Origin: a virus | Taxonomy: Duplodnaviria > Caudoviricetes | Length of the DNA: 64,000 bases | Virus record (IMG/VR): IMGVR_UViG_3300046318_000318 | Strand: one strand, 5' to 3' | Part shown: positions 3,064 through 63,318 of the stretch, one piece after another | How positions within the stretch are numbered: position 1 is the first letter of the stretch | Layout: the number at the start of each line of letters is the position of its first letter | Translations under genes and position numbers: made by a program | Notes under the pieces: generated by a model | Told to the model about the DNA's origin: nothing | Databases searched by the model: none | Seen by the model: the letters and a program-made list of their open reading frames with translations, nothing else

Positions 3064-3130
3064 AAGTTCCTCTTTTTAAAAGTTGATTAAGCTCTTTGAG
3101 ACAGAGCGGTCAATTAAAGTATGTGTGACT
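3061..3130 (-). promoter_or_regulatory. Promoter-like motif, variant class (TCACACATA-CTTTAA-TTGACC), and leader of the 1837-3063 gene
   Basis: Shares the TCA..-N6-TTGA core with copies at 3291, 12817, 19351 and 58337; leader contains hairpin GCTCT-N7-AGAGC. Confidence 0.5.
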
Positions 3131-3151
3131 AACGATAGATACAAACAGAAC

Positions 3152-3198
3152 AAAAAAAAAATAACACCCCCGGCCTGTAAGGGCTAGGGGTGTTAATT
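3152..3198. terminator. Intrinsic terminator, repeated CACCC..GGCC/GGCT..GGGTG family
   Basis: GC-rich hairpin with a long T tract on the minus strand; nearly identical to 18839-18883. Confidence 0.8.
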
Positions 3199-3208
3199 TA
3201 CGCCTCGA

Positions 3209-3223
3209 TCACGCTCCAGCCAT
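3209..3223 (-). pseudogene. 4-codon mini-ORF (MAGA*) in an otherwise complete expression cassette; probable deleted-gene remnant
   Basis: TAAGGAGATAATC-ATG GCT GGA GCG TGA, followed about 15 nt later by the terminator. Confidence 0.5.
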
Positions 3224-3306
3224 GATTATCTCCTTAACTGATAGTGTCGTAGAAAGAACGACTTAAACTACAGCGATAGCTCAAATAGAATATATGTGAT
3301 TGAAAT
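3221..3306 (-). promoter_or_regulatory. Conserved putative early promoter + hairpin leader + RBS, copy A
   Basis: TCACATATA-TTCTAT-TTGA-GC-TATCG-CTGTA-GTTTAA-[GTCGT-N7-ACGAC]-ACTATCAGT-TAAGGAGATA-ATC-ATG; collinear with copies B and C. Confidence 0.7.
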
Positions 3307-3332
3307 TATTTACAAGAACTTATTTAGAAAAA

Positions 3333-3363
3333 AGATACACACAGCCTCATGGCTGTGTGTATT
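3333..3363. terminator. Hairpin terminator downstream of nrdB
   Basis: ATACACACAGCC-TCAT-GGCTGTGTGTAT flanked by A/T tracts. Confidence 0.7.
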
Positions 3364-3371
3364 TTAATCTA

Positions 3372-7648: not shown

Positions 7649-9790
7649 TCAAACGAGTTTGTAGTTGATTTGCACTTTATTAAGTACAGCAGGTACGTTG
7701 TTCACAACGAAGGTCGTCATGATAGGCAGGTGTGTCACGAATGCGTAACGTGGCTGCACAACGGTCTCTTTGCTGTAGGTGTTACCACGGCTCAGATTAG
7801 CAGTCATCACCAACTCAGGACCCCAGATCATGTTGCCGAAGTTCAATGGGTTAGGAGCAGTGTTACGCTGCTCGTTGAACACACCGAAGGTCATGAAGAT
7901 CTTACCAGCAACACGGCTATCAAGGGTAGAGACGATGCGAACATCAAACTCACCACCCAACGTACGCAGGTCACCAGACACGTTCAAGTAACGAGCCAAC
8001 ACTGGATCTGTGCCGATGATCACGACTGGTACAGCAGAGATACCACCGCTCAGAGCGTCGGCAGCAGCCTTGTACTCGGAGTCACGATACATGCGGTAAG
8101 CGTAATCACGCAGCTTGTTCACCAGAGCAGCTTGCATGTCTTGAGCGCGTTCGAACGACTTGATGGAGTCCACCATGGTCGCCATATCCAGAGTTTCCTG
8201 GAAGTAGGTAGGACGCACAAAGAAACGACCCACACCCAACACGTCAGGACCTTCACCCAACACGTCAGCAGCATCCACATATTGAGCCAAGGTACCAGCA
8301 GCGTCGATCAGAGCAGAAACTGCTTCGTTAGACACGCGGATACGAGTAGCGCTGATCAGAGCTTGCACGTCGGTAGCGTCGACAGAAGCGTCGACCACAG
8401 CAGGATGCATAGCAGAGATAGGCGAACGCAATGGCACAGCGTACAGTTGCGTGAACTTGGTCACGTCGATCAACTGACCGCGTTGACGACGGTTGATGTT
8501 CGTGTAGAAAGCAGTCAGGTCGTAACCTTCAATGGTACCAGCGTTGACCACTGCGACCACAGGAGCGGCAGGAGCAACAGCTTGATCCAATTGCTGACCA
8601 GTAGAGTCCAGAATGACGTGAGTCTGCACAGCGTTACCGTAGATAGAAGTCTTACCGGTTTCGATGTTCACAGAACCAGTCAACTTCAGCTCAACGCGAG
8701 CAATCAGGTTACCAGTAACCACACCAGCCAGATCCACCAGAGCAGAACCGTCAGCTTGCTTGGTATCGCGGTTGATCAGAACGCTCGTGGTTTCGAAGTT
8801 CAGAGTCATCACGCGATAATTGTTTTGCGTGCTGTATGTGAAGTTAGCCAAAGGTAGGTTCGACACATTGAAGCGCAGAACGTCAGCACCGAACTTGACA
8901 TACACGTTCTTGAGGTTCAAGAAGGTGTCCAGAGTGTCGGTGTTGTCCATCACGCCAGTGGCCAGCAGAGCATCAGTTTGACCCACGGCGATCAGGTTCA
9001 GTTCTTTACCGATCTTCAGAGGAGCGGTGGTGATAGATTGACCTTCGACGATCACAGCAGCAGGAGCTACGACAGCAGGATCCACGAACTGAGCGGCGTT
9101 TTGAGGACGCACAGCTGGAATCACGCGGGTCTGTTCTTTCTTCAGGATCGAAGCATCGGCCACAGCACGGATGATGTTCTTCTTACCAAAATCACGGAAT
9201 GCGCCGTCGATGTTGTGTTGAGTTGCGTCAAACACAGTCATCAGATCCACGGTCACGCCAAAACCAACTTGGTCAGGAGTCAGAACCAGAGTAGGGAAGA
9301 AGGTTTCGCCAAACTCGTCTTGACGAGCAGACTGCATGTTGTAAGCGATCGAGTAGATCGAAGCATTGCGGTTCTCGCGCTCGTCATAAGCTTCCAGACC
9401 GAATGCACGCTCAGACATACCTTCAGCAGCACCCATGGTTTGCACAACCACAGCACCTTCCATAGCCACAGGGCTAGAGATGGTCTTGCGGCTCAGCAGA
9501 TGGCGTGGGTCAGCAGCGATCATACCGCCGATAGAACCAGCAGCGATTTGAGCGGGGGTGAGTTTGTAACCCAGACCCAGGTCAGCCACGATCGATTCGA
9601 TAGCGGTGCTCAGACCTTCATGTACATTGTTCAGTTCAGCCAATTGGAAGTCTTGTGCAGATTCCAGGGCAAACATGGTCTTGGTAGACTCAGGAGTAAC
9701 CATGCGACCACCTTCAACGGTGTTACGCAGATGCACCAGCAGTTGCTGAACTTGGGTTTTTTGTTGACCCGTGGATTTACCAAATTTCAT
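7649..9790 (-). CDS. Major capsid protein (phiKZ gp120-like)
   Basis: 713 aa; GLE|AYD-type maturation site, QDEFGETFFPT and IGTDP..ARYL motifs; strongly biased GC-rich codon usage; AAGGAA RBS; synteny with helicase. Confidence 0.9.
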   Translation of the reverse strand: MKFGKSTGQQKTQVQQLLVHLRNTVEGGRMVTPESTKTMFALESAQDFQLAELNNVHEGLSTAIESIVADLGLGYKLTPAQIAAGSIGGMIAADPRHLLSRKTISSPVAMEGAVVVQTMGAAEGMSERAFGLEAYDERENRNASIYSIAYNMQSARQDEFGETFFPTLVLTPDQVGFGVTVDLMTVFDATQHNIDGAFRDFGKKNIIRAVADASILKKEQTRVIPAVRPQNAAQFVDPAVVAPAAVIVEGQSITTAPLKIGKELNLIAVGQTDALLATGVMDNTDTLDTFLNLKNVYVKFGADVLRFNVSNLPLANFTYSTQNNYRVMTLNFETTSVLINRDTKQADGSALVDLAGVVTGNLIARVELKLTGSVNIETGKTSIYGNAVQTHVILDSTGQQLDQAVAPAAPVVAVVNAGTIEGYDLTAFYTNINRRQRGQLIDVTKFTQLYAVPLRSPISAMHPAVVDASVDATDVQALISATRIRVSNEAVSALIDAAGTLAQYVDAADVLGEGPDVLGVGRFFVRPTYFQETLDMATMVDSIKSFERAQDMQAALVNKLRDYAYRMYRDSEYKAAADALSGGISAVPVVIIGTDPVLARYLNVSGDLRTLGGEFDVRIVSTLDSRVAGKIFMTFGVFNEQRNTAPNPLNFGNMIWGPELVMTANLSRGNTYSKETVVQPRYAFVTHLPIMTTFVVNNVPAVLNKVQINYKLV

Positions 9791-9826
9791 TTCGAGTTCC
9801 TTAGTTGGTTTCAGAAAAGTTAACTG

Positions 9827-10438
9827 TCACAAAACGCTACCTTGAAGTTCTTTCAGGTAAACAGAATAAATGCCGAGGCTGGATGCTCTGCCGGACGACA
9901 TCATAGAATAGAACTGATCGACGCATTTTTTAGAAAAGTTAAATGCGCCTTTCTTGGTTTGGAGAGTATTGATAATACCCTCGTCGACGATAATGTAAAC
10001 GACGTGAGTGTCTTTTACGAATGTGTAAGTTTTAGACTCTATACCGAAAGCATCTTCAATCTCCACAACAGGCATTCCATCCTGCATTGTGGTTAGTCTA
10101 TTTCTCATGTATAGTTTATTTTCTTCCATACCAACTAAGGGTTGAACGGAATACTCCAGCTCTTTTAATTGCTCTGTGGTGAGATTTTGGAAATGACAAG
10201 ACAGTTTAAATCCATCGAACCAAAACAGATTCTTATTTCTGTATGTGGTGTATAAAGGACTAAAAGCCTCATCGACATAGGCCCAATCTCTCAGATCATT
10301 AAGCGATAGAACACCACGGACTTTACCGTAGTTTCTAAAATCCATAATATCTATTTTATTACGTATCAATATCTGATATATCCATCTGGGGATTGGACAC
10401 ACAACAGATGAATTCAAAAAAGGTATGTCGGTACTCAT
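9827..10438 (-). CDS. Conserved hypothetical protein (phiKZ gp119-like by position)
   Basis: Start moved from the ORF-track 10498 to ATG 10438, which has a GAGGT RBS; lies between helicase and capsid genes. Confidence 0.6.
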   Translation of the reverse strand: MSTDIPFLNSSVVCPIPRWIYQILIRNKIDIMDFRNYGKVRGVLSLNDLRDWAYVDEAFSPLYTTYRNKNLFWFDGFKLSCHFQNLTTEQLKELEYSVQPLVGMEENKLYMRNRLTTMQDGMPVVEIEDAFGIESKTYTFVKDTHVVYIIVDEGIINTLQTKKGAFNFSKKCVDQFYSMMSSGRASSLGIYSVYLKELQGSVL

Positions 10439-12751: not shown

Positions 12752-12830
12752 AACTATCTCCTTAGTCACAAGTTCGAAAGATGTTTCGATTAAACTGTAA
12801 CGATAGTCAAGTTAAGTATATGTGACCAAA
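12749..12830 (-). promoter_or_regulatory. Conserved putative early promoter + hairpin leader + RBS, copy B
   Basis: TCACATATA-CTTAAC-TTGA-C-TATCG-TTACA-GTTTAA-[TCGAAA-CATC-TTTCGA]-ACTTGTGAC-TAAGGAGATA-GTT-ATG. Confidence 0.7.
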
Positions 12831-12896
12831 ATACTTTATAAGGATATCTAGTTAACCTGGATATCTTTTGACTATAAACCTTAAGGACTTTACAAT

Positions 12897-15729: not shown

Positions 15730-16861
15730 CATTAATTAACTTCGGTGTGGTAAAACCAATCTTTGTATTTATCCTTTTTAACCCTGTGTGTCACTAAACC
15801 TTGCGATATTTTGAAATATCTAGAAGCATCAGCACATGAGTTAAAAAGAATTCCACCTGCAAATACCTTACGAGTGTTTGTTGGTGGGATACCTATTCTG
15901 TTTTCCCTAAGTTTTCTTTTTGTTTCTTCAGTATGTTTTCTATTGAAGAAAGAATTCTTAGAACCGGTTCTTAAACGTTGACGTGCTCTGATTTTTTCAA
16001 TTTGTTCTTCAGAAAGTTTACAACCTTTGTTGTAGCTATGACCTTTATGCATTAAAGATATAAGCTTTCTGGTTTCAACTGAATGTTGTCTTCCAAACAT
16101 TCCATTAGCTGAACCATTTTTACCCCAAAGGTTTTTTCTTTCTAAAACAGACATTGACGCTATATTTTTAGCTTGTGTTTTGTTTCTTCTGTCTAATATG
16201 TCATCACGTTTTGGATGATTAGATAAAGAATTGCCAAATTTAGAATTTAAACTTATATTAGCCAGTAGGTTTTTATTCAGACCTGTGTATGACTTTATTA
16301 TAAGCTTTTCCTCTAATTGAAAAGCTTCTTCCCTAGAACTACACGGAATAGAGGAAACTTTATAATCAGTTCCTTCACACCATGCTTCTTGTAAACGCAG
16401 ATTATGGTGATTGTTTCTTTTCAACGACCTAAAATGAGTTCGAAGTCTTTTCTTTAAATTTGACGTACTACCTATATAAAACACACCTGTTTTTGTTAAT
16501 GTGAGTATATAAACACAAAAATCATTACTGTTCATATAGATTCCTCGTTAGGATTACCATATAATGAACACAGCACTGCTTTACATCTCTGTAAAGATAG
16601 ATCATATCACCACCTTCAGCCTTACCTGTTAAGGGTTCCCCGTTTCGAAGCGATTCACATCGGTTCTACGTCTTTCGACTGATCGTTGAACTTTCTCCAG
16701 TTTAAAGGAGCTTAGCTGCTGATTGTCTCTACCTACTAATTTTCAAACACGTTACGTATGTGTTTTCACACTCCGCTTTGGTTTAGTAGTCTAACAAGGG
16801 TTTCCAGCAATTAGAGGAATTTTCAAATAGGTATTTCTACCTATACAGCGCTCAGTTATTA
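15730..16861 (-). mobile_element. Group I self-splicing intron (IA-like) in thyA, 1132 nt
   Basis: P1: exon CAGCGU pairs with intron GCGCUG (U.G at the splice site). P10: ACUGA pairs with exon-2 UCAGU. Core elements AAUUGCUGGAAA, AAUCAGCAG, GAUCA/UGAUC (P7), UUCCUC/GGGGAA (P3). Terminal G at 15730. Confidence 0.92.
15732..16535 (-). CDS. Intron-encoded GIY-YIG homing endonuclease (I-TevI/I-BmoI-like)
   Basis: CVYILT...FYIGSTSNLKKR catalytic motif; NUMOD3-like repeats (RQHSVETRKLIS, RKHTEETKRKL); C-terminal HTH-like segment; GAGGA RBS. Confidence 0.92.
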   Translation of the reverse strand: MNSNDFCVYILTLTKTGVFYIGSTSNLKKRLRTHFRSLKRNNHHNLRLQEAWCEGTDYKVSSIPCSSREEAFQLEEKLIIKSYTGLNKNLLANISLNSKFGNSLSNHPKRDDILDRRNKTQAKNIASMSVLERKNLWGKNGSANGMFGRQHSVETRKLISLMHKGHSYNKGCKLSEEQIEKIRARQRLRTGSKNSFFNRKHTEETKRKLRENRIGIPPTNTRKVFAGGILFNSCADASRYFKISQGLVTHRVKKDKYKDWFYHTEVN

Positions 16862-17710
16862 ACGCTGGAACATAAGTAGGTTCAAACGCTTCTTACCACC
16901 TTCATTGAGAGCAGGTTGTACAAAGCATTGGAACATAACATGGCATGGTGCCAAAGCACCCATACCCAACAATACATTCAGATCAGGAGAAATCTTATTG
17001 TCAGGAATGAATTGTGGTAACCATGAGCTTACCACAAGACGTGAAGAATAAGGATTGTTTTTCAGTTCAGCCAGAAGAATACCTAATTGATCTACCTTAG
17101 AGACATAAGTCTTCTGAATGAAATCAGTCTCTGTGACGGGATCTGTTCCATCATCTTCTGCTTCTTTATAAGCAAGATATTCTTTATAAGCTTCTTTAAA
17201 AGCTTCTACTTTATCAGAAGGAATATCTTCGATAGGTGGTTTGTTTCTGAGAAGTTGGTGAATGTTACTCATCTCATCAGCAGGGGCATGGCGCCAGTTA
17301 AAGCCGTACAAAGGACCGATAGATCCGATACGCTCACTGATCTGTTCACGAAGTTTAGCCATGAGCATTTCATTACCGGCCATACTCTGACGATCTTCTT
17401 CTGATTCAAACTTAGACAAGAAATATTCCATGAACTTATCCACTGTTTTTTCAGTGACAGCCCAGTTATCCCAGATATGCACATTTGCTTCATTCAGCAA
17501 AGTGTTATCAATCTCACCAGCGATAAACCAAAGCAATTCTTCTTTCATACCTCGAAAGAAGATCTTACGAGTAGTGACCAAAGGAAAACCATCACTCATG
17601 TTGAATCGGACTTGTCTACCGAAGATAGATCGACGACCTACGCCGGTACGATCGGGATGATCATGTCCATTGTCACGGATATCCTTGAGGAGTTCTATAT
17701 AAGTCTTCAT
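16862..17710 (-). CDS. thyA: Thymidylate synthase, exon 1
   Basis: DRTGVG, FPLVTTRK, ELLWFIAG, GPLYG, LAPCH (catalytic Cys); ends at MFQR followed by the intronic TAA. Confidence 0.93.
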
Positions 17711-19283: not shown

Positions 19284-19366
19284 GAGTATCCCCTTAACCA
19301 GCAGTGTTACAGATGTGTAACTTAAACCACTAGCGATATCTCAAGTTAAGTTTATGTGATTGAAAT
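19281..19366 (-). promoter_or_regulatory. Conserved putative early promoter + hairpin leader + RBS, copy C
   Basis: TCACATAAA-CTTAAC-TTGA-GA-TATCG-CTAGTG-GTTTAA-[GTTACA-CATC-TGTAAC]-ACTGCTGGT-TAAGGGGATA-CTC-ATG. Confidence 0.7.
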
Positions 19367-19380
19367 ATTCTCTAAGGGAT

Positions 19381-19420
19381 ATAAGAGATATCCTACCCTT
19401 AAGGGTAGGATATCTCTTAT
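19381..19420. repeat. Perfect 40-bp palindrome at the end of the endolysin gene
   Basis: ATAAGAGATATCCTACCCTT-AAGGGTAGGATATCTCTTAT. Confidence 0.9.
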
Positions 19421-27942: not shown

Positions 27943-27948
27943 GTGCTA

Positions 27949-28158
27949 TCACCACTTAGGGACTTTATCAGGACAAGTACTAGATTGAAAGTAAGACTTG
28001 GTTGCCAAAGGACAACTACACAAGCCACATACTTCAACCTCTCGTTTGATGTAAGGTATCGTTGTGATTTTGATATTCACACATGCCTTACATATAGCTA
28101 ACCTATTAGCTACAGTCTCAGCCGAAGCTGGTCTGGGATCTAAAATAGCATTTAACAT
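27949..28158 (-). CDS. Small Cys-rich metal-binding protein
   Basis: RLAICKAC...CGLCSC...CP..VPKW in 69 aa. Confidence 0.6.
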   Translation of the reverse strand: MLNAILDPRPASAETVANRLAICKACVNIKITTIPYIKREVEVCGLCSCPLATKSYFQSSTCPDKVPKW

Positions 28159-57683: not shown

Positions 57684-58298
57684 TCATCGCTTACTCAGTT
57701 CAATGCGGTGGATATCGGAATCAGTAACCTCACACCAAATTGCTTCTTCCTCTTTATCAACCAAGCTGAATTGATGCCAGTATCCATTCCCTGAGTAATT
57801 ATACCCACGGTAAATCAGACGCTCTGACTGACCCTTCCAGTTACATCGATCACCTACATTAAAGCGAGTGATGTTACCGTTGCTATCAAACCCCAGTTCT
57901 TTCAGTAATTCTACTACACTCCAAACAATCTTACTATCTTTATCAAATACCTTTTCGTAGGTTTCGAAATCATCAATTAGTCCAGACGGACATTCTTCAC
58001 GAGGTGTCACCCACAGTGGAAAATAAGACGTCGACGCTACATGACTCACAGTAAAGCCGGATGATTGATTTTTACTGGTGGTTAAATCTAGTTTATAACC
58101 AAACATGTGATTGTCATTATGGAACAGCACGCGTTTTTCATTATCACCTGACTTGATGTAAAGACAATGAGTGGCCAGGCGATGCTTTTGGGTAACTAAA
58201 CTCTTTACTTTTTCTCTGGACATAACAATATCCTCTGGATGGCGTGTATGTTCGTTATGGTTAAAATACATAGCCTGCACAATACTAACTTGATTCAT
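57684..58298 (-). CDS. Accessory hypothetical protein with small SH3-like C-terminal domain
   Basis: FNVGDRCNWKGQSERLIY...WHQF...WCEV; standalone gene with its own promoter-like motif and family terminator. Confidence 0.6.
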   Translation of the reverse strand: MNQVSIVQAMYFNHNEHTRHPEDIVMSREKVKSLVTQKHRLATHCLYIKSGDNEKRVLFHNDNHMFGYKLDLTTSKNQSSGFTVSHVASTSYFPLWVTPREECPSGLIDDFETYEKVFDKDSKIVWSVVELLKELGFDSNGNITRFNVGDRCNWKGQSERLIYRGYNYSGNGYWHQFSLVDKEEEAIWCEVTDSDIHRIELSKR

Positions 58299-58348
58299 GA
58301 CACATTCCTTTAAAAAGTTGTTAAGGTCAAATAAAGTTTAAATGACTC
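58296..58348 (-). promoter_or_regulatory. Promoter-like motif, variant class (TCATTTAAA-CTTTAT-TTGACC)
   Basis: Resembles the 3120-3128 copy, including TTAA.CAACTTTT downstream. Confidence 0.4.
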
Positions 58349-58373
58349 AAATGTTTTATAAAACCTATACTAT

Positions 58374-58490
58374 GGCTGAGTGTTAATATTGGTTATCCGA
58401 TATGGTCACGATGCTCCTTGAGGTGGACTCGGTGGTCAAACGCCGTTTATGTCTCCATGATTTGTTAACTCGGGTCGTGGAGACTTTTTT
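58374..58490 (+). ncRNA. Candidate structured small RNA
   Basis: CTATACTATG (TATG late-promoter-like) at 58365-58374, three hairpins, then a plus-strand terminator GTCTCCATGA..TCGTGGAGAC-TTTTTT; both neighbouring genes are on the minus strand. Confidence 0.45.
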
Positions 58491-58527
58491 CCTCGTGAAT
58501 GGTTGGAAGTTAAAAGTGCAGCATAGT

Positions 58528-58557
58528 ACCTTATCCACCTTAACGGGTGGATAAGGT
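58528..58557. terminator. Hairpin downstream of the 58566-58904 ORF
   Basis: ACCTTATCCACC-N6-GGTGGATAAGGT. Confidence 0.65.
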
Positions 58558-58565
58558 TTCTATGT

Positions 58566-58904
58566 TTAGCTTTTTAAATCCTTCTCTATGTCTGCCATAG
58601 CTGAAGACTTCTTCTTGATTTGATCCAAGGCTATTTGGTTCATCATCTCGTGTACATCTCTAGGGACAGCTAAGTACTCTTCAAACGACAACCCAAAATG
58701 CTCTCGAATATTACTATCTATATAAACACGCATAGCTAACTGTAAGCCACTGCCGTCGTTGACGTCTTCGATGTTGTGAAAAGCCACCGAGGCTAATGGG
58801 CGTGTCTTGTTGGATTGACCGAAATGATTGTAGATCCCTATTTCTGTTTCATAGAGATCCCCAAGCACTATTTTTACATCTGTTCTGTCCAGCTTAGGTA
58901 GCAT
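58566..58904 (-). CDS. Conserved small ORF; probable C-terminal extension (T-like part) of the upstream chaperone via -1 frameshift
   Basis: Frame stays open upstream to the T7 run at 59022-59028; FGLSFEEYLAVP motif. Confidence 0.65.
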   Translation of the reverse strand: MLPKLDRTDVKIVLGDLYETEIGIYNHFGQSNKTRPLASVAFHNIEDVNDGSGLQLAMRVYIDSNIREHFGLSFEEYLAVPRDVHEMMNQIALDQIKKKSSAMADIEKDLKS

Positions 58905-61104: not shown

Positions 61105-61114
61105 CTATACTATG
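61105..61114 (+). promoter_or_regulatory. Putative late promoter (TATG motif)
   Basis: CTATACTATG, identical to 58365-58374; phiKZ late promoters carry TATG at the start site. Short motif, so weak evidence. Confidence 0.4.
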
Positions 61115-61160: not shown

Positions 61161-62021
61161 ATGAACGAATTGGTGTCAGAATTTATAAGTCAACAGTTTG
61201 CACCAGAAGCTGTTGAAGATTTTAAAAGAGCTTTTGAACTTTTCAATGCGTTTAACAGTCTTGACGATGATGAAAAGTTAATCGATATCCTGACTGATAG
61301 CAGCTTGACATCTATAGATCAAAAGGACGCTATATATAAAGCAGTGAATGATTCGGCTGATAAGATCTTATCGGCACACACCATCCGTACTTACGATGAT
61401 GTAAGTTTAGCTGTTAAGAATGAGATACTGTCTGCTTTATTTCTTGTTCAGCATTTAGAAGATTCCAAACCTTTTCAGATAGCTTTAGAATCGCCTGAGA
61501 ACGATGATGAGATTCTGGCTTTTATCATCAGTGAACTATCTACTCTAGATAAACTGGATGTTATGTCTGCAATAGCTGACTTTAGACCATCAGTTCTGAA
61601 ACAGTTAAAAGCTTACCTACTCTCTAAAGAAACAGAAGATAGCAGCCCTGTGGTGGATAAGTATATTAAGATACTTAAAGAATTTAAAGTATTTTCCAAA
61701 AAAGACGACCTTATAGGTTTACAACTGACTGAGAGCGGTATGCTCTTGGGTCAGAGATTAGAGACGTACGCTGGATACATATCTAATATAGAGGTCAGAG
61801 ATTTAGATACTTTGAGTTATCACATACTCTCTTTGCTGTACATGACACCTGAAGGTATCAACAGCCCTATCCTGGCTTATAGAAGATCAAGCCATGTTCT
61901 GTTTGATGATCTGGCTGTGGTCAGTAACGTAGAAAATAAATTGGCTTCCTTAGTGGCCAATTTCAATGAATACCAGAAAGCCTTAAATGAAAAGATTAGA
62001 CTATCTGAAACTGGCTCTTAA
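61161..62021 (+). CDS. Conserved jumbo-phage protein upstream of the virion RNAP subunit
   Basis: 286-aa helical acidic ORF overlapping the RNAP subunit start. Confidence 0.65.
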   Translation: MNELVSEFISQQFAPEAVEDFKRAFELFNAFNSLDDDEKLIDILTDSSLTSIDQKDAIYKAVNDSADKILSAHTIRTYDDVSLAVKNEILSALFLVQHLEDSKPFQIALESPENDDEILAFIISELSTLDKLDVMSAIADFRPSVLKQLKAYLLSKETEDSSPVVDKYIKILKEFKVFSKKDDLIGLQLTESGMLLGQRLETYAGYISNIEVRDLDTLSYHILSLLYMTPEGINSPILAYRRSSHVLFDDLAVVSNVENKLASLVANFNEYQKALNEKIRLSETGS

Positions 62022-63318
62022 GAATAGAGCTTACGCAACACAGGACTGGATCATACGTTGTTTTGCGATCATGCGTCCTAAAACAGAAGCTGAGTTAGCA
62101 GGTAATACGTATTACCTCATGCCTGTGCTCCTGCCTTTTGCTTACGGGTTCATCAATGAAGAAAATGTCTTTGTTAAGTTTGATGAGGATCTGGATGTCA
62201 AACAACCTTTGTTTTCTTTTAGTGAAAGACTCACTATAGATAACACATGGGCTGATAATGTCAAACAACCAACAGAGACTTGCATAGGCAATGTGCTGGT
62301 TAATGCAATAGGTGTGCTTGAGTGTTTTGGTTCTAAGTTTCCTTTTCAGACAGGTTCTTTGTCCATGGGGAGTTTTGAATCTCTTATAGTCGACAAGCTA
62401 AGAGACACACCAAAAACAGAAACAGAAAGATCTACTGAGTATTATTACGTTGATGAATATGTTAAGTTCATCAACGCTATGTCTTATATAAGGGACTTCT
62501 CACACTTAGTTTCCATATCAGCTACCAGAAAGAACATACGTAAGCCAGACGGCATAGAAGCTTTTAAGAAACAATTGCTTGTTAAATATGAAGGTAAGTT
62601 AACAGATCCTGTTGAGCTTTCTAAATTTGAAGGTGAGTTGAAAGCTTTTGACGATGCTTACATGGCAGATGACCCAAGTAACAATAAGTTTGTTAAAGGT
62701 AAGATTAAGAACATTGCTAGAAAGAAATTGTTTCTTACGCTAGGTCAAGGACTGTCCTTTAATGAAGGTGGTGAACAAAATCCTATTGTCGGTTCTTTAA
62801 CAGAAGGTTGGTCAACAGATCCTAAAGATATAACAGCCATGGTGAATGATACACGTATGGCCAGTTATTACCGAGGTTCCGAAACTGTTAAAGGTGGTGT
62901 GTCAGCTAAAACCTTACTCAGAGCCGCTAATAATTTCAAAATCTGGAAAGACAGAAGTGGTTCACCCACAGACTGTGGTTCTAAGCTTGGTTTGAAAAGA
63001 ATCTATACGTCTGGCAATATCTCTCAACTACCTGGTAAAACTTTACTGTTAGGATCTTCTTCTAAGTTAATAGAGAACGATCAAGAGGCAGGTGTCTATC
63101 TGGGTAAAACTTTGACTGTCAGATCTCCTATGTATTGCACACTGTCGGGTGATGTTATATGTGAGGTCTGTGCCGGTAAGAAACTTTCTACTTTACCCAC
63201 AGGTCTGTCCATCCCTCTGACAGAAATTTCAGCCATCATCATGACATCTTCTATGAAACGTATGCATGGTGTGGTATTGTCAACAGCAAAAATAACTTTA
63301 GAAGACCACTTCTCTTAA
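61987..63318 (+). CDS. Virion RNA polymerase beta-prime subunit, middle/C-terminal fragment (phiKZ gp80-like)
   Basis: Second Zn site DCGS...RSPMYC...ICEVCAG, bridge-helix-like SYYRGSETVKGG and trigger-loop-like MKRMHG. Confidence 0.88.
   Translation: MKRLDYLKLALKNRAYATQDWIIRCFAIMRPKTEAELAGNTYYLMPVLLPFAYGFINEENVFVKFDEDLDVKQPLFSFSERLTIDNTWADNVKQPTETCIGNVLVNAIGVLECFGSKFPFQTGSLSMGSFESLIVDKLRDTPKTETERSTEYYYVDEYVKFINAMSYIRDFSHLVSISATRKNIRKPDGIEAFKKQLLVKYEGKLTDPVELSKFEGELKAFDDAYMADDPSNNKFVKGKIKNIARKKLFLTLGQGLSFNEGGEQNPIVGSLTEGWSTDPKDITAMVNDTRMASYYRGSETVKGGVSAKTLLRAANNFKIWKDRSGSPTDCGSKLGLKRIYTSGNISQLPGKTLLLGSSSKLIENDQEAGVYLGKTLTVRSPMYCTLSGDVICEVCAGKKLSTLPTGLSIPLTEISAIIMTSSMKRMHGVVLSTAKITLEDHFS

What the first reader, a model, noticed from the sequence alone, without database searches (positions are those of the whole stretch)
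58365..58490. Candidate late structured small RNA antisense to its neighbourhood
Seen: a 267-bp gap between two minus-strand genes holds a plus-strand unit. It starts at CTATACTATG (identical to the 10-mer upstream of the RNAP operon at 61105), has hairpins ATATTGG-TTAT-CCGATAT, GTCAC..GTGGAC and CGGTG-GTCAAA-CGCCG, and ends in a one-directional terminator with T6. The only ORF at the start is ATG GCT GAG TGT TAA, without an RBS. Inference: a ~117-nt noncoding RNA, such as an sRNA, a tRNA-like decoy for anticodon nucleases, or an assembly RNA.
Basis: partly seen in the sequence, partly recalled or inferred. Interest (0 to 1): 0.62.

Follow-up and report, generated by a model that had tools for sequence, protein, structure and literature searches.

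The report
Conserved small RNA gene, jumbo phage
The gap holds a real, folded non-coding RNA gene of about 117 bases, kept in shape by matching mutations in related uncultured freshwater giant phages; it adds a well-supported member to the known but functionally unexplained class of jumbo-phage small RNAs.

Summary
The 267-bp gap (58299-58565) between two minus-strand genes carries a plus-strand unit: CTATACTATG (58365-58374), a structured stretch, and a one-directional terminator with T6 (58451-58490).

Three distinct metagenomic relatives keep the unit at the same place:
- The gap is 69-74% identical, like the well-conserved 112-aa gene. The adjacent 204-aa gene is only 43-54% identical.
- 97.8% of structure cells stay paired, and 14 pairs changed on both sides (shuffles 6.0 +/- 1.7).
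- There are 19 G.U cells against 1 A.C, so the plus strand is the folded one.
- The G of TATG closes the 5' helix. This fits the phiKZ rule that late promoters start at that G.

A 20-nt core (58415-58434, 19 of 20 bases invariant) sits between the 5' domain and the third hairpin.

There is no Rfam, tRNA or paralogue match. The unit and the neighbouring fast-evolving protein gene are both absent from more distant relatives, so the two look like one accessory module.

Function is unknown. No target was found, and the Shine-Dalgarno-like GAGGUGG is not exceptional. Metatranscriptome contigs cover the region, but strand is unproven.

The scan has noted jumbo-phage small RNAs before on other DNA, but not this sequence family. 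Verdict: new member of a known kind, moderate interest.

The parts
58365..58374 (+). Promoter core CTATACTATG; predicted +1 is G58374
   Evidence: An exact second copy lies at 61105, upstream of the gp79/gp80-like operon. That copy is conserved in L001, L003 and L004. YTATNYTATGR gives 4 hits against 1.3 expected, and the two hits in co-directional contexts point with their genes. phiKZ late promoters are TATG with G as +1 (PMC4666361). The motif is kept as CTATATTATG in L001 and TTATACTATG in L004.
58374..58490 (+). Predicted small RNA, about 117 nt
   Evidence: Plus-strand fold -43.0 kcal/mol (z -4.1) against -19.8 for the minus strand. The covariance model finds L001 at 73 bits and L004 at 65 bits, with no paralogue. 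97.8% of cells are paired and 14 pairs changed on both sides.
58374..58415 (+). 5' domain: a three-part stem-loop closed by the first nucleotides. It contains hairpin 58386-58403.
   Evidence: The pair at position 2 is G-C in the window, A-U in L001 and G.U in L004. GUG/CAC is kept through wobble changes. The hairpin has 3 pairs with changes on both sides.
58415..58434 (+). Conserved core TCCTTGAGGTGGAYTCGGTG (one Y position). UCC/GGA closes a 7-nt loop UUGAGGU.
   Evidence: Identical in all four sequences apart from the single Y position. No second copy in the window.
58430..58445 (+). Hairpin 3: CGGUG, 6-nt loop, CRCCG
   Evidence: The stem is kept (U.G changes to U-A) while the loop varies.
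58451..58490 (+). Terminator T1: 14-bp stem plus U6, one-directional
   Evidence: Found by the scan. The stem sequence is replaced in relatives while the hairpin and the T run are kept, with 11 of 14 pairs changed on both sides. The window stem has four U.G pairs that would be mismatches on the minus strand.
58491..58527 (+). Conserved spacer with CGTGA (58494-58498) and AAGTGCAGCATAGTACC
   Evidence: Kept in all relatives. RNAalifold pairs CGUGA with UCACG at 58406-58410. Its role is unexplained.
58528..58557 (.). Hairpin T2. It is probably a bidirectional phiKZ-type terminator: the stop for the 112-aa gene and a back-up stop for the RNA.
   Evidence: Found by the scan. One pair takes three Watson-Crick forms: U-A, C-G and G-C. 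On both strands it is followed by a TATG-containing tail, like the phiKZ hairpin-YTTATKYYGT terminator motif (PMC10914365).
58325..58364 (-). AT-rich early-type promoter motif for the 204-aa gene, back to back with the RNA promoter
   Evidence: The same roughly 38-nt motif precedes four other minus-strand units, in gaps 3064 (twice), 12752 and 19284. It is kept in L001 and L004.
57684..58298 (-). Divergently transcribed 204-aa gene of unknown function that co-occurs with the RNA
   Evidence: Homologues sit beside the RNA in L001, L003 and L004 at only 25-30% amino-acid identity in L001 and L004. Both the RNA and the protein are absent from G002 and G003.

Best explanation
This is a stand-alone small non-coding RNA gene of an uncultured freshwater nucleus-forming (phiKZ-like) jumbo phage.

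Inferred transcription. The phage's non-virion RNA polymerase starts at G58374 of a TATG-type middle/late promoter and stops at the intrinsic terminator T1, giving an RNA of about 117 nt. Any read-through would be caught by hairpin T2, giving about 190 nt.

Shown. The RNA folds on the plus strand into four parts:
- a 5'-terminal three-part stem-loop that begins at +1;
- a 20-nt core with a single variable base;
- a short hairpin;
- the terminator.

Inferred function.
- The 5' stem protects the end of the RNA.
- The conserved, weakly structured core is the working surface, for base pairing with a target RNA or for binding a protein.
- The RNA is one half of an accessory two-gene module. The other half is the divergently transcribed, early-promoter, fast-evolving 204-aa gene. 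The RNA probably acts on that protein or on its pathway later in infection.
For: Phage identity:
- Split multisubunit RNA polymerase and phiKZ gp77-gp80 synteny.

Conservation:
- The homologous unit sits at the same place in L003, L001 and L004.
- Gap identity is 69-74%, against 43-54% for the adjacent gene.

Structure:
- 97.8% of cells are paired. 14 pairs changed on both sides against 6.0 +/- 1.7 in shuffles (0 of 500), and slid controls give 0-4.
- 19 G.U cells against 1 A.C.
- The plus strand folds far better than the minus strand in the window and L004.
- The 5' helix closes at the G of TATG, and the pair at position 2 covaries.

Promoter and terminator:
- The terminator is one-directional, with T6 kept in all relatives.
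- The promoter core is shared with a conserved operon promoter.
- The phiKZ rule for late promoters is TATG with G as +1.

Non-coding:
- The ORF behind GAGGUG is 41, 21 and 44 aa in the three sequences, with no conservation after residue 6.

Expression and module:
- RNA-library contigs cover 58397-58520 and 58484-58563.
- The RNA and the 204-aa family are present together or absent together.
Against: - No strand-resolved or 5'-end data. The RNA-library evidence is unstranded contigs that may include DNA.
- Only three distinct sequences. Most covariation sits in the terminator stem, and the alignment was fitted to the model.
- Plain TATG is not enriched. The strict extended motif finds only the RNA's own site and one intragenic site in the relative's 113-kb record.
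- One RNA contig crosses T1, so termination there is incomplete or the opposite strand is also transcribed.
- No target was found.
- The partner protein has no recognisable fold: pLDDT 54.6 and no family hits.
Confidence: 0.6

Rival explanations
1. Transcription furniture only. The plus-strand promoter and the tandem terminators are real, but the short transcript is a by-product. The unit would work in cis, for example by promoter competition with the back-to-back early promoter of the 204-aa gene, or by shielding the minus-strand cluster from antisense transcription.
For: - The two promoters are back to back within about 10 nt.
- Two terminators stand in a row.
- Most compensatory changes are in the terminator.
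- No trans target was found.
Against: - A by-product needs neither a near-invariant 20-nt core nor compensatory changes in the 5' domain.
- The gap is as conserved as a constrained gene.
Confidence: 0.15
2. The conserved structure belongs to a minus-strand transcript. This would be a long 5' leader of the 204-aa gene that starts at the TATG just after hairpin T2 (G at 58522), or read-through from the 112-aa gene.
For: - Hairpin followed by TATG is a common joint between minus-strand genes here.
- GGTACTATGCTGCAC is kept in all relatives.
- The RNA contig 58397-58520 stops matching 2 nt from that G.
Against: - 19 G.U cells would become A.C mismatches on the minus strand.
- The minus-strand fold is -19.8 against -43.0 kcal/mol in the window.
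- T1 with its T run has no role on the minus strand.
- In phiKZ the hairpin-TTATG tail is a terminator motif, not necessarily a promoter.
- The 204-aa gene has its own early-type promoter.
Confidence: 0.07
3. It is a small protein gene. GAGGUG (58420-58425) would serve as the ribosome-binding site for GUG 58432, 6 nt downstream, giving a 41-aa peptide.
For: The Shine-Dalgarno-like sequence, the spacing and the GUG are kept in all three sequences, and the frame is open in all three.
Against: - The peptides are 41, 21 and 44 aa and unrelated after MxxxRL.
- The changes preserve base pairs, not amino acids (R to H in hairpin 3, and the whole T1 stem replaced).
- T1 would end the message before a stop codon.
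- The GUG lies inside hairpin 3.
Confidence: 0.05
4. It is a DNA-level element, such as a protein-binding site, a replication site or a packaging site, rather than an RNA.
For: A near-invariant 20-mer and palindromes such as GTTTTATAAAAC at 58353-58364.
Against: - DNA sites do not explain G.U-specific compensation.
- They do not explain a U-tract terminator.
- They do not explain a helix that closes at a promoter's +1.
Confidence: 0.05

Closest known systems
Short promoter-to-terminator RNAs of phiKZ and 201phi2-1, found by ONT-cappable-seq (PMC10914365, PMC11512511)
   Same: - Nucleus-forming jumbo phage.
- A unit under 250 nt bounded by a phage promoter and an intrinsic terminator.
- Structured, with unknown function. 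Three of the eleven 201phi2-1 RNAs are intergenic, and phiKZ has a 141-nt intergenic RNA.
   Different: - No sequence or structure relation: model R2 finds nothing in phiKZ.
- Those RNAs were seen as transcripts; this one is inferred from comparative data.
- This one points against its gene cluster and is tied to a clade-specific protein gene.
Lambda OOP RNA and P22 sar RNA (own knowledge)
   Same: A small phage RNA with its own promoter and terminator, set against the flow of the neighbouring genes.
   Different: OOP and sar overlap the coding or ribosome-binding region of their target. This RNA overlaps no ORF. It would be antisense only to read-through or a long leader on the minus strand, which has not been shown.
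Jumbo-phage small RNAs with a 17-21-nt complement of the 16S rRNA 3' end
   Same: - Chimallivirus small RNA whose predicted +1 closes a stem.
- One unchanging open stretch. Here that stretch contains GAGGUGG.
   Different: - The complement is only 7 nt.
- It ranks 24th of 56 comparable sites in the window, and no such site is found in L004.
- The defining feature is not met.
Type III toxin-antitoxin RNAs (ToxI-like; own knowledge)
   Same: A structured RNA genetically linked to a fast-evolving protein gene.
   Different: - No tandem repeats.
- The RNA is divergent from the protein gene, not upstream on the same strand.
- The protein matches no PADLOC or Pfam model at a meaningful score; one member has a single weak PADLOC hit, E 0.022.

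Membership tests
Chimallivirus short promoter-to-terminator ncRNAs | Encoded by a phiKZ-like phage with split multisubunit RNA polymerases | tested here: met
   phrog_2962 RNA polymerase beta. Homologue of phiKZ gp80, with gp77-gp80 synteny.
Chimallivirus short promoter-to-terminator ncRNAs | Mapped transcription start with a phage promoter motif | tested here: inconclusive
   Motif evidence only. No 5'-end data. Plain TATG is not enriched.
Chimallivirus short promoter-to-terminator ncRNAs | Terminator less than 250 nt downstream of the start | tested here: met
   T1 stem at 58451-58484 plus U6, 117 nt from the predicted +1, conserved.
Chimallivirus short promoter-to-terminator ncRNAs | Discrete abundant transcript observed | tested here: inconclusive
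   RNA-library contigs cover 58397-58520 and 58484-58563, but they are unstranded and DNA carry-over is possible.
Chimallivirus short promoter-to-terminator ncRNAs | No conserved ORF with a ribosome-binding site | tested here: met
   The GUG ORF is 41, 21 and 44 aa and is not conserved. The 4-codon ATG ORF would lie upstream of +1.
Any Rfam family, including phage pRNA | Covariance-model match | tested here: not met
   Nothing in the gap at the gathering score. At E<=10 there are only chance miRNA-hairpin hits on T2.
tRNA or tRNA-like | Cloverleaf detected by ARAGORN | tested here: not met
   0 genes in the window. The 7-nt loop UUGAGGU has only a 3-4-bp stem.
Cis-antisense phage RNAs (OOP or sar type) | Overlaps a target mRNA on the opposite strand | tested here: inconclusive
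   No ORF overlap. Overlap with a minus-strand leader or read-through is possible but not shown.
16S-tail-complement small RNAs of jumbo phages (notes of this scan) | Invariant complement of the 16S 3' end, at least 17 nt | tested here: not met
   Only GAGGUGG. The best site, -13.4 kcal/mol, overlaps hairpin 3 and ranks 24th of 56. L004 has none at or below -12.5.

The most novel reading that the evidence does not exclude
The RNA and the divergent, fast-evolving 204-aa early protein form one RNA-protein accessory module. The protein is made early from the virion-polymerase promoter. The RNA is made later from the non-virion-polymerase promoter and binds, neutralises or redirects the protein through its conserved core. 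That would make it a timer or an antitoxin-like switch, possibly in an anti-defence role. This would be a new kind of RNA-protein pair in nucleus-forming phages.
Probability: 0.12. Interest if true: 0.7.

Novelty: new member of a known kind. Interest (0 to 1): 0.42.

Why it matters
Small RNAs of nucleus-forming jumbo phages have been catalogued by transcript mapping, but none has a known function. This unit brings four things to that class:
- comparative proof of selection on the structure;
- a defined start;
- a conserved candidate working surface;
- a linked protein partner.

These make it a concrete candidate for functional work once a host or a tractable relative is found. It also helps annotation of this freshwater clade. 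It points to three signal types to look for: an AT-rich early-type motif, a TATACTATG-type motif, and hairpin-TATG terminators.

Tried and rejected
Homologue and family searches:
- Close phage relatives by DNA: none.
- Rfam at the gathering score and at E<=10: nothing relevant.
- ARAGORN: none.
- Paralogues in the window and in relatives' records: none.
- phiKZ and pEa_SNUABM_54 scanned with model R2: nothing significant.
- Syntenic site in more distant relatives (L008-L010, pEa_SNUABM_54): only a convergent gene and a short gap.
- The phiKZ gap between gp75 and gp76 holds an ordinary terminator plus an early promoter, unrelated to this unit.

More homologues:
- Viral-contig pattern and protein scans gave only L001 plus chance hits.
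- The genome-contig scan gave one chance hit in an actinobacterial MAG.
The contigs encoding P0002, P0005, P0006 and P0009-P0014 could therefore not be fetched.

Target search:
- The reverse complement of the core has no second site.
- The core against 61 translation-start regions scores no better than a shuffled core.
- A shared complementary site in the 517-aa gene uses different registers in the window and G001 and is missing in L004.

Other ideas:
- A role through the Shine-Dalgarno-like GAGGUGG or the 16S tail: not exceptional.
- The strict promoter motif in G001: uninformative.

The 204-aa protein:
- No Pfam match. PHROGs gives only a weak C-terminal hit to an unknown-function family.
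- Nothing meaningful from PADLOC, PDB sequences or the Atlas.
- The AlphaFold model was too poor to search.

RNA-library contigs:
- The ends at 58364 and 58520, and the A/G-rich stretches after 58563 (plus strand) and before 58800 (minus strand), may hint at strand. They are not evidence.

Full report
**Setting**

The window comes from an uncultured phiKZ-like jumbo phage.
- It encodes a split multisubunit RNA polymerase subunit (61987-63318, phrog_2962).
- That subunit is the homologue of phiKZ gp80. It is preceded by a gp79-like gene and by divergent gp78- and gp77-like genes.
- No sequenced phage is close at the DNA level.
- Runs that hold the stretch are freshwater metagenomes.

**The observation**

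ORFs 57684-58298 and 58566-58904 are both on the minus strand and leave a 267-bp gap. On the plus strand the gap holds:
- CTATACTATG at 58365-58374, with one other exact copy at 61105;
- the tiny ORF ATG GCT GAG TGT TAA;
- hairpins at 58386-58403 and 58430-58445;
- a 14-bp stem at 58451-58484 followed by T6.

The 128-nt stretch folds at -43.3 kcal/mol, z -3.7, and none of 200 shuffles does as well. The proposed GTCAC..GTGGAC hairpin is not what forms. CAC pairs with the 5' GUG, and GGA pairs with UCC.

**Relatives**

The 112-aa protein led to three loci with the same gene order:
- L003, nearly identical;
- L001, an IMG/VR contig of 113 kb;
- L004, an ENA contig.

All three carry a homologous gap. 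Gap identity is 69-74%. The 112-aa gene is 74-82% identical. The 204-aa gene on the other side is only 43-54% identical at the DNA level and 25-30% at the protein level. The gap is therefore under purifying selection.

**Structure and strand**

Folding from the G of TATG gives the same architecture in all three distinct sequences:
- The first nucleotides close a three-part stem-loop. The pair at position 2 is G-C, A-U or G.U. GUG(A) pairs with (U)CRY. Hairpin 1 is at the tip.
- Next comes the core UCCUUGAGGUGGAYUCGGUG, invariant apart from the Y position.
- Then a 5-bp hairpin with a variable 6-nt loop.
- Then the terminator, whose stem sequence is entirely replaced while the hairpin and the U6 run are kept.

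On an alignment made with a covariance model:
- 97.8% of cells are paired.
- 14 of 34 pairs changed on both sides, against 6.0 +/- 1.7 in shuffles (0 of 500 reach the observed value). Slid registers give 0-4.
- The alignment was fitted to the model, and 11 of the 14 pairs are in the terminator. The support is good but not overwhelming.

Strand:
- 19 cells are G.U and one is A.C.
- The plus strand folds at -43.0, -47.3 and -40.7 kcal/mol against -19.8, -28.3 and -35.6 for the minus strand.
- T1 has a T run on the plus side only.

**Promoter**

In phiKZ the late promoter is TATG with G as the start (PMC4666361).

Plain TATG is uninformative here: 10 in the sense orientation and 8 antisense in co-directional gaps.

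The longer core is more telling:
- YTATNYTATGR occurs four times against 1.3 expected.
- The two copies in co-directional contexts (39856 and 9901) point the same way as their genes.
- The copy at 61105 sits in a block conserved in all relatives, upstream of the gp79/gp80-like operon. Virion polymerase genes are middle genes in phiKZ (abstract of PMC4666361).

The RNA is therefore probably made by the non-virion polymerase in the middle or late phase. This is an inference from motifs.

Immediately to the left, on the minus strand, lies an AT-rich motif of about 38 nt. It also precedes four other minus-strand units. It fits the early-promoter type described for these phages (PMC11512511).

**Downstream of T1**

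- The spacer keeps CGTGA and AAGTGCAGCATAGTACC. These are unexplained.
- Hairpin T2 (58528-58557) has one pair in three Watson-Crick forms.
- T2 is followed on both strands by a TATG-containing tail, like the phiKZ terminator motif, a hairpin followed by YTTATKYYGT (PMC10914365).
- I read T2 as a bidirectional terminator.

**Coding tests**

- Behind GAGGUG, a GUG opens a frame in all three sequences. The products are 41, 21 and 44 aa and are unrelated after six residues.
- The substitutions preserve base pairs rather than amino acids.
- The ATG of TATG would lie upstream of the transcript.

**Expression**

Four metatranscriptome runs, available only as unstranded contigs, were laid on the stretch.
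- The pieces cover 58176-58364, 58397-58520 (across T1) and 58484-58563.
- One run shows an A/G-rich extension after 58563 on the plus strand. The same run shows a similar extension on the minus strand after a fragment of the minus-strand 112-aa gene.
- If these are 3' tails, they give the expected strands. They may equally be assembly artefacts.
- Transcription of the plus strand is therefore not demonstrated.

**Distribution**

- Model R2 finds the RNA in the L001 record only. It is absent from two 210-216-kb records of more distant relatives, from phiKZ and from an Erwinia phage.
- At the syntenic site those phages have a convergent gene after a short gap.
- The 204-aa protein family is missing from the same two metagenomic records.
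- RNA and protein thus come and go together.
- The protein has no recognisable family or confident fold.

**Function**

- No second site complementary to the core exists in the window.
- Pairing of the core with 61 translation-start regions is no better than for a shuffled core.
- The only shared candidate site in a relative is not conserved in register.
- Earlier notes of this scan describe jumbo-phage RNAs with a 17-21-nt complement of the 16S tail. Here the complement is 7 nt and unexceptional, so this RNA is not of that type.
- My best mechanistic guess is that a 5'-protected, terminator-ended RNA presents the conserved core to a partner, possibly the linked protein. This is inference only.

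**Verdict**

This is a genuine, conserved, plus-strand structured RNA unit and a new member of the known class of jumbo-phage small RNAs. Its function is open.

Noticed in passing
window 3150-3300 (minus strand), in the gap 3064-3371: A second mini transcription unit. It has an early-type AT-rich promoter motif, a 5' hairpin, a strong ribosome-binding site (TTAAGGAGATAATC), ATG plus three codons (MAGA, then stop), and a strong terminator. It contains the strongest predicted complement of the 16S tail in the window (-16.2 kcal/mol at 3204).
   Followed up: partly
window gaps 3064-3371 (two copies), 12752-12896, 19284-19416 and 58325-58364: A family of AT-rich motifs of about 38 nt (consensus near TTATAAAGTATTTNNGTCACATATACTTAACTTGAC on the gene strand). 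In three cases it is followed by a conserved leader hairpin and TTTAA. These are probably the phage's early promoters.
   Followed up: partly
window 16579-16871 (minus strand): A group I intron (Rfam RF00028, 67.4 bits) between ORFs 15732-16535 and 16859-17710, which are presumably the two exons of one gene.
   Followed up: no
window 57684-57850, the C-terminal 56 aa of the 204-aa protein: This C-terminal extension matches a protein of Shewanella phage 1/41 at 52% identity. It is missing from the L001 and L004 homologues, so the protein is a fusion in some strains.
   Followed up: partly
window 27943-28151: A 209-nt gap between minus-strand genes with no ORF. It was not examined for RNA structure.
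   Followed up: no
window 8001-10000: A local rise in G+C to 0.51 against about 0.40 elsewhere.
   Followed up: no
window 58520: An RNA-library contig of run X20 matches 58397-58520 exactly and then continues with 49 unrelated letters that occur nowhere else in the window. It is a chimera or a variant junction.
   Followed up: partly
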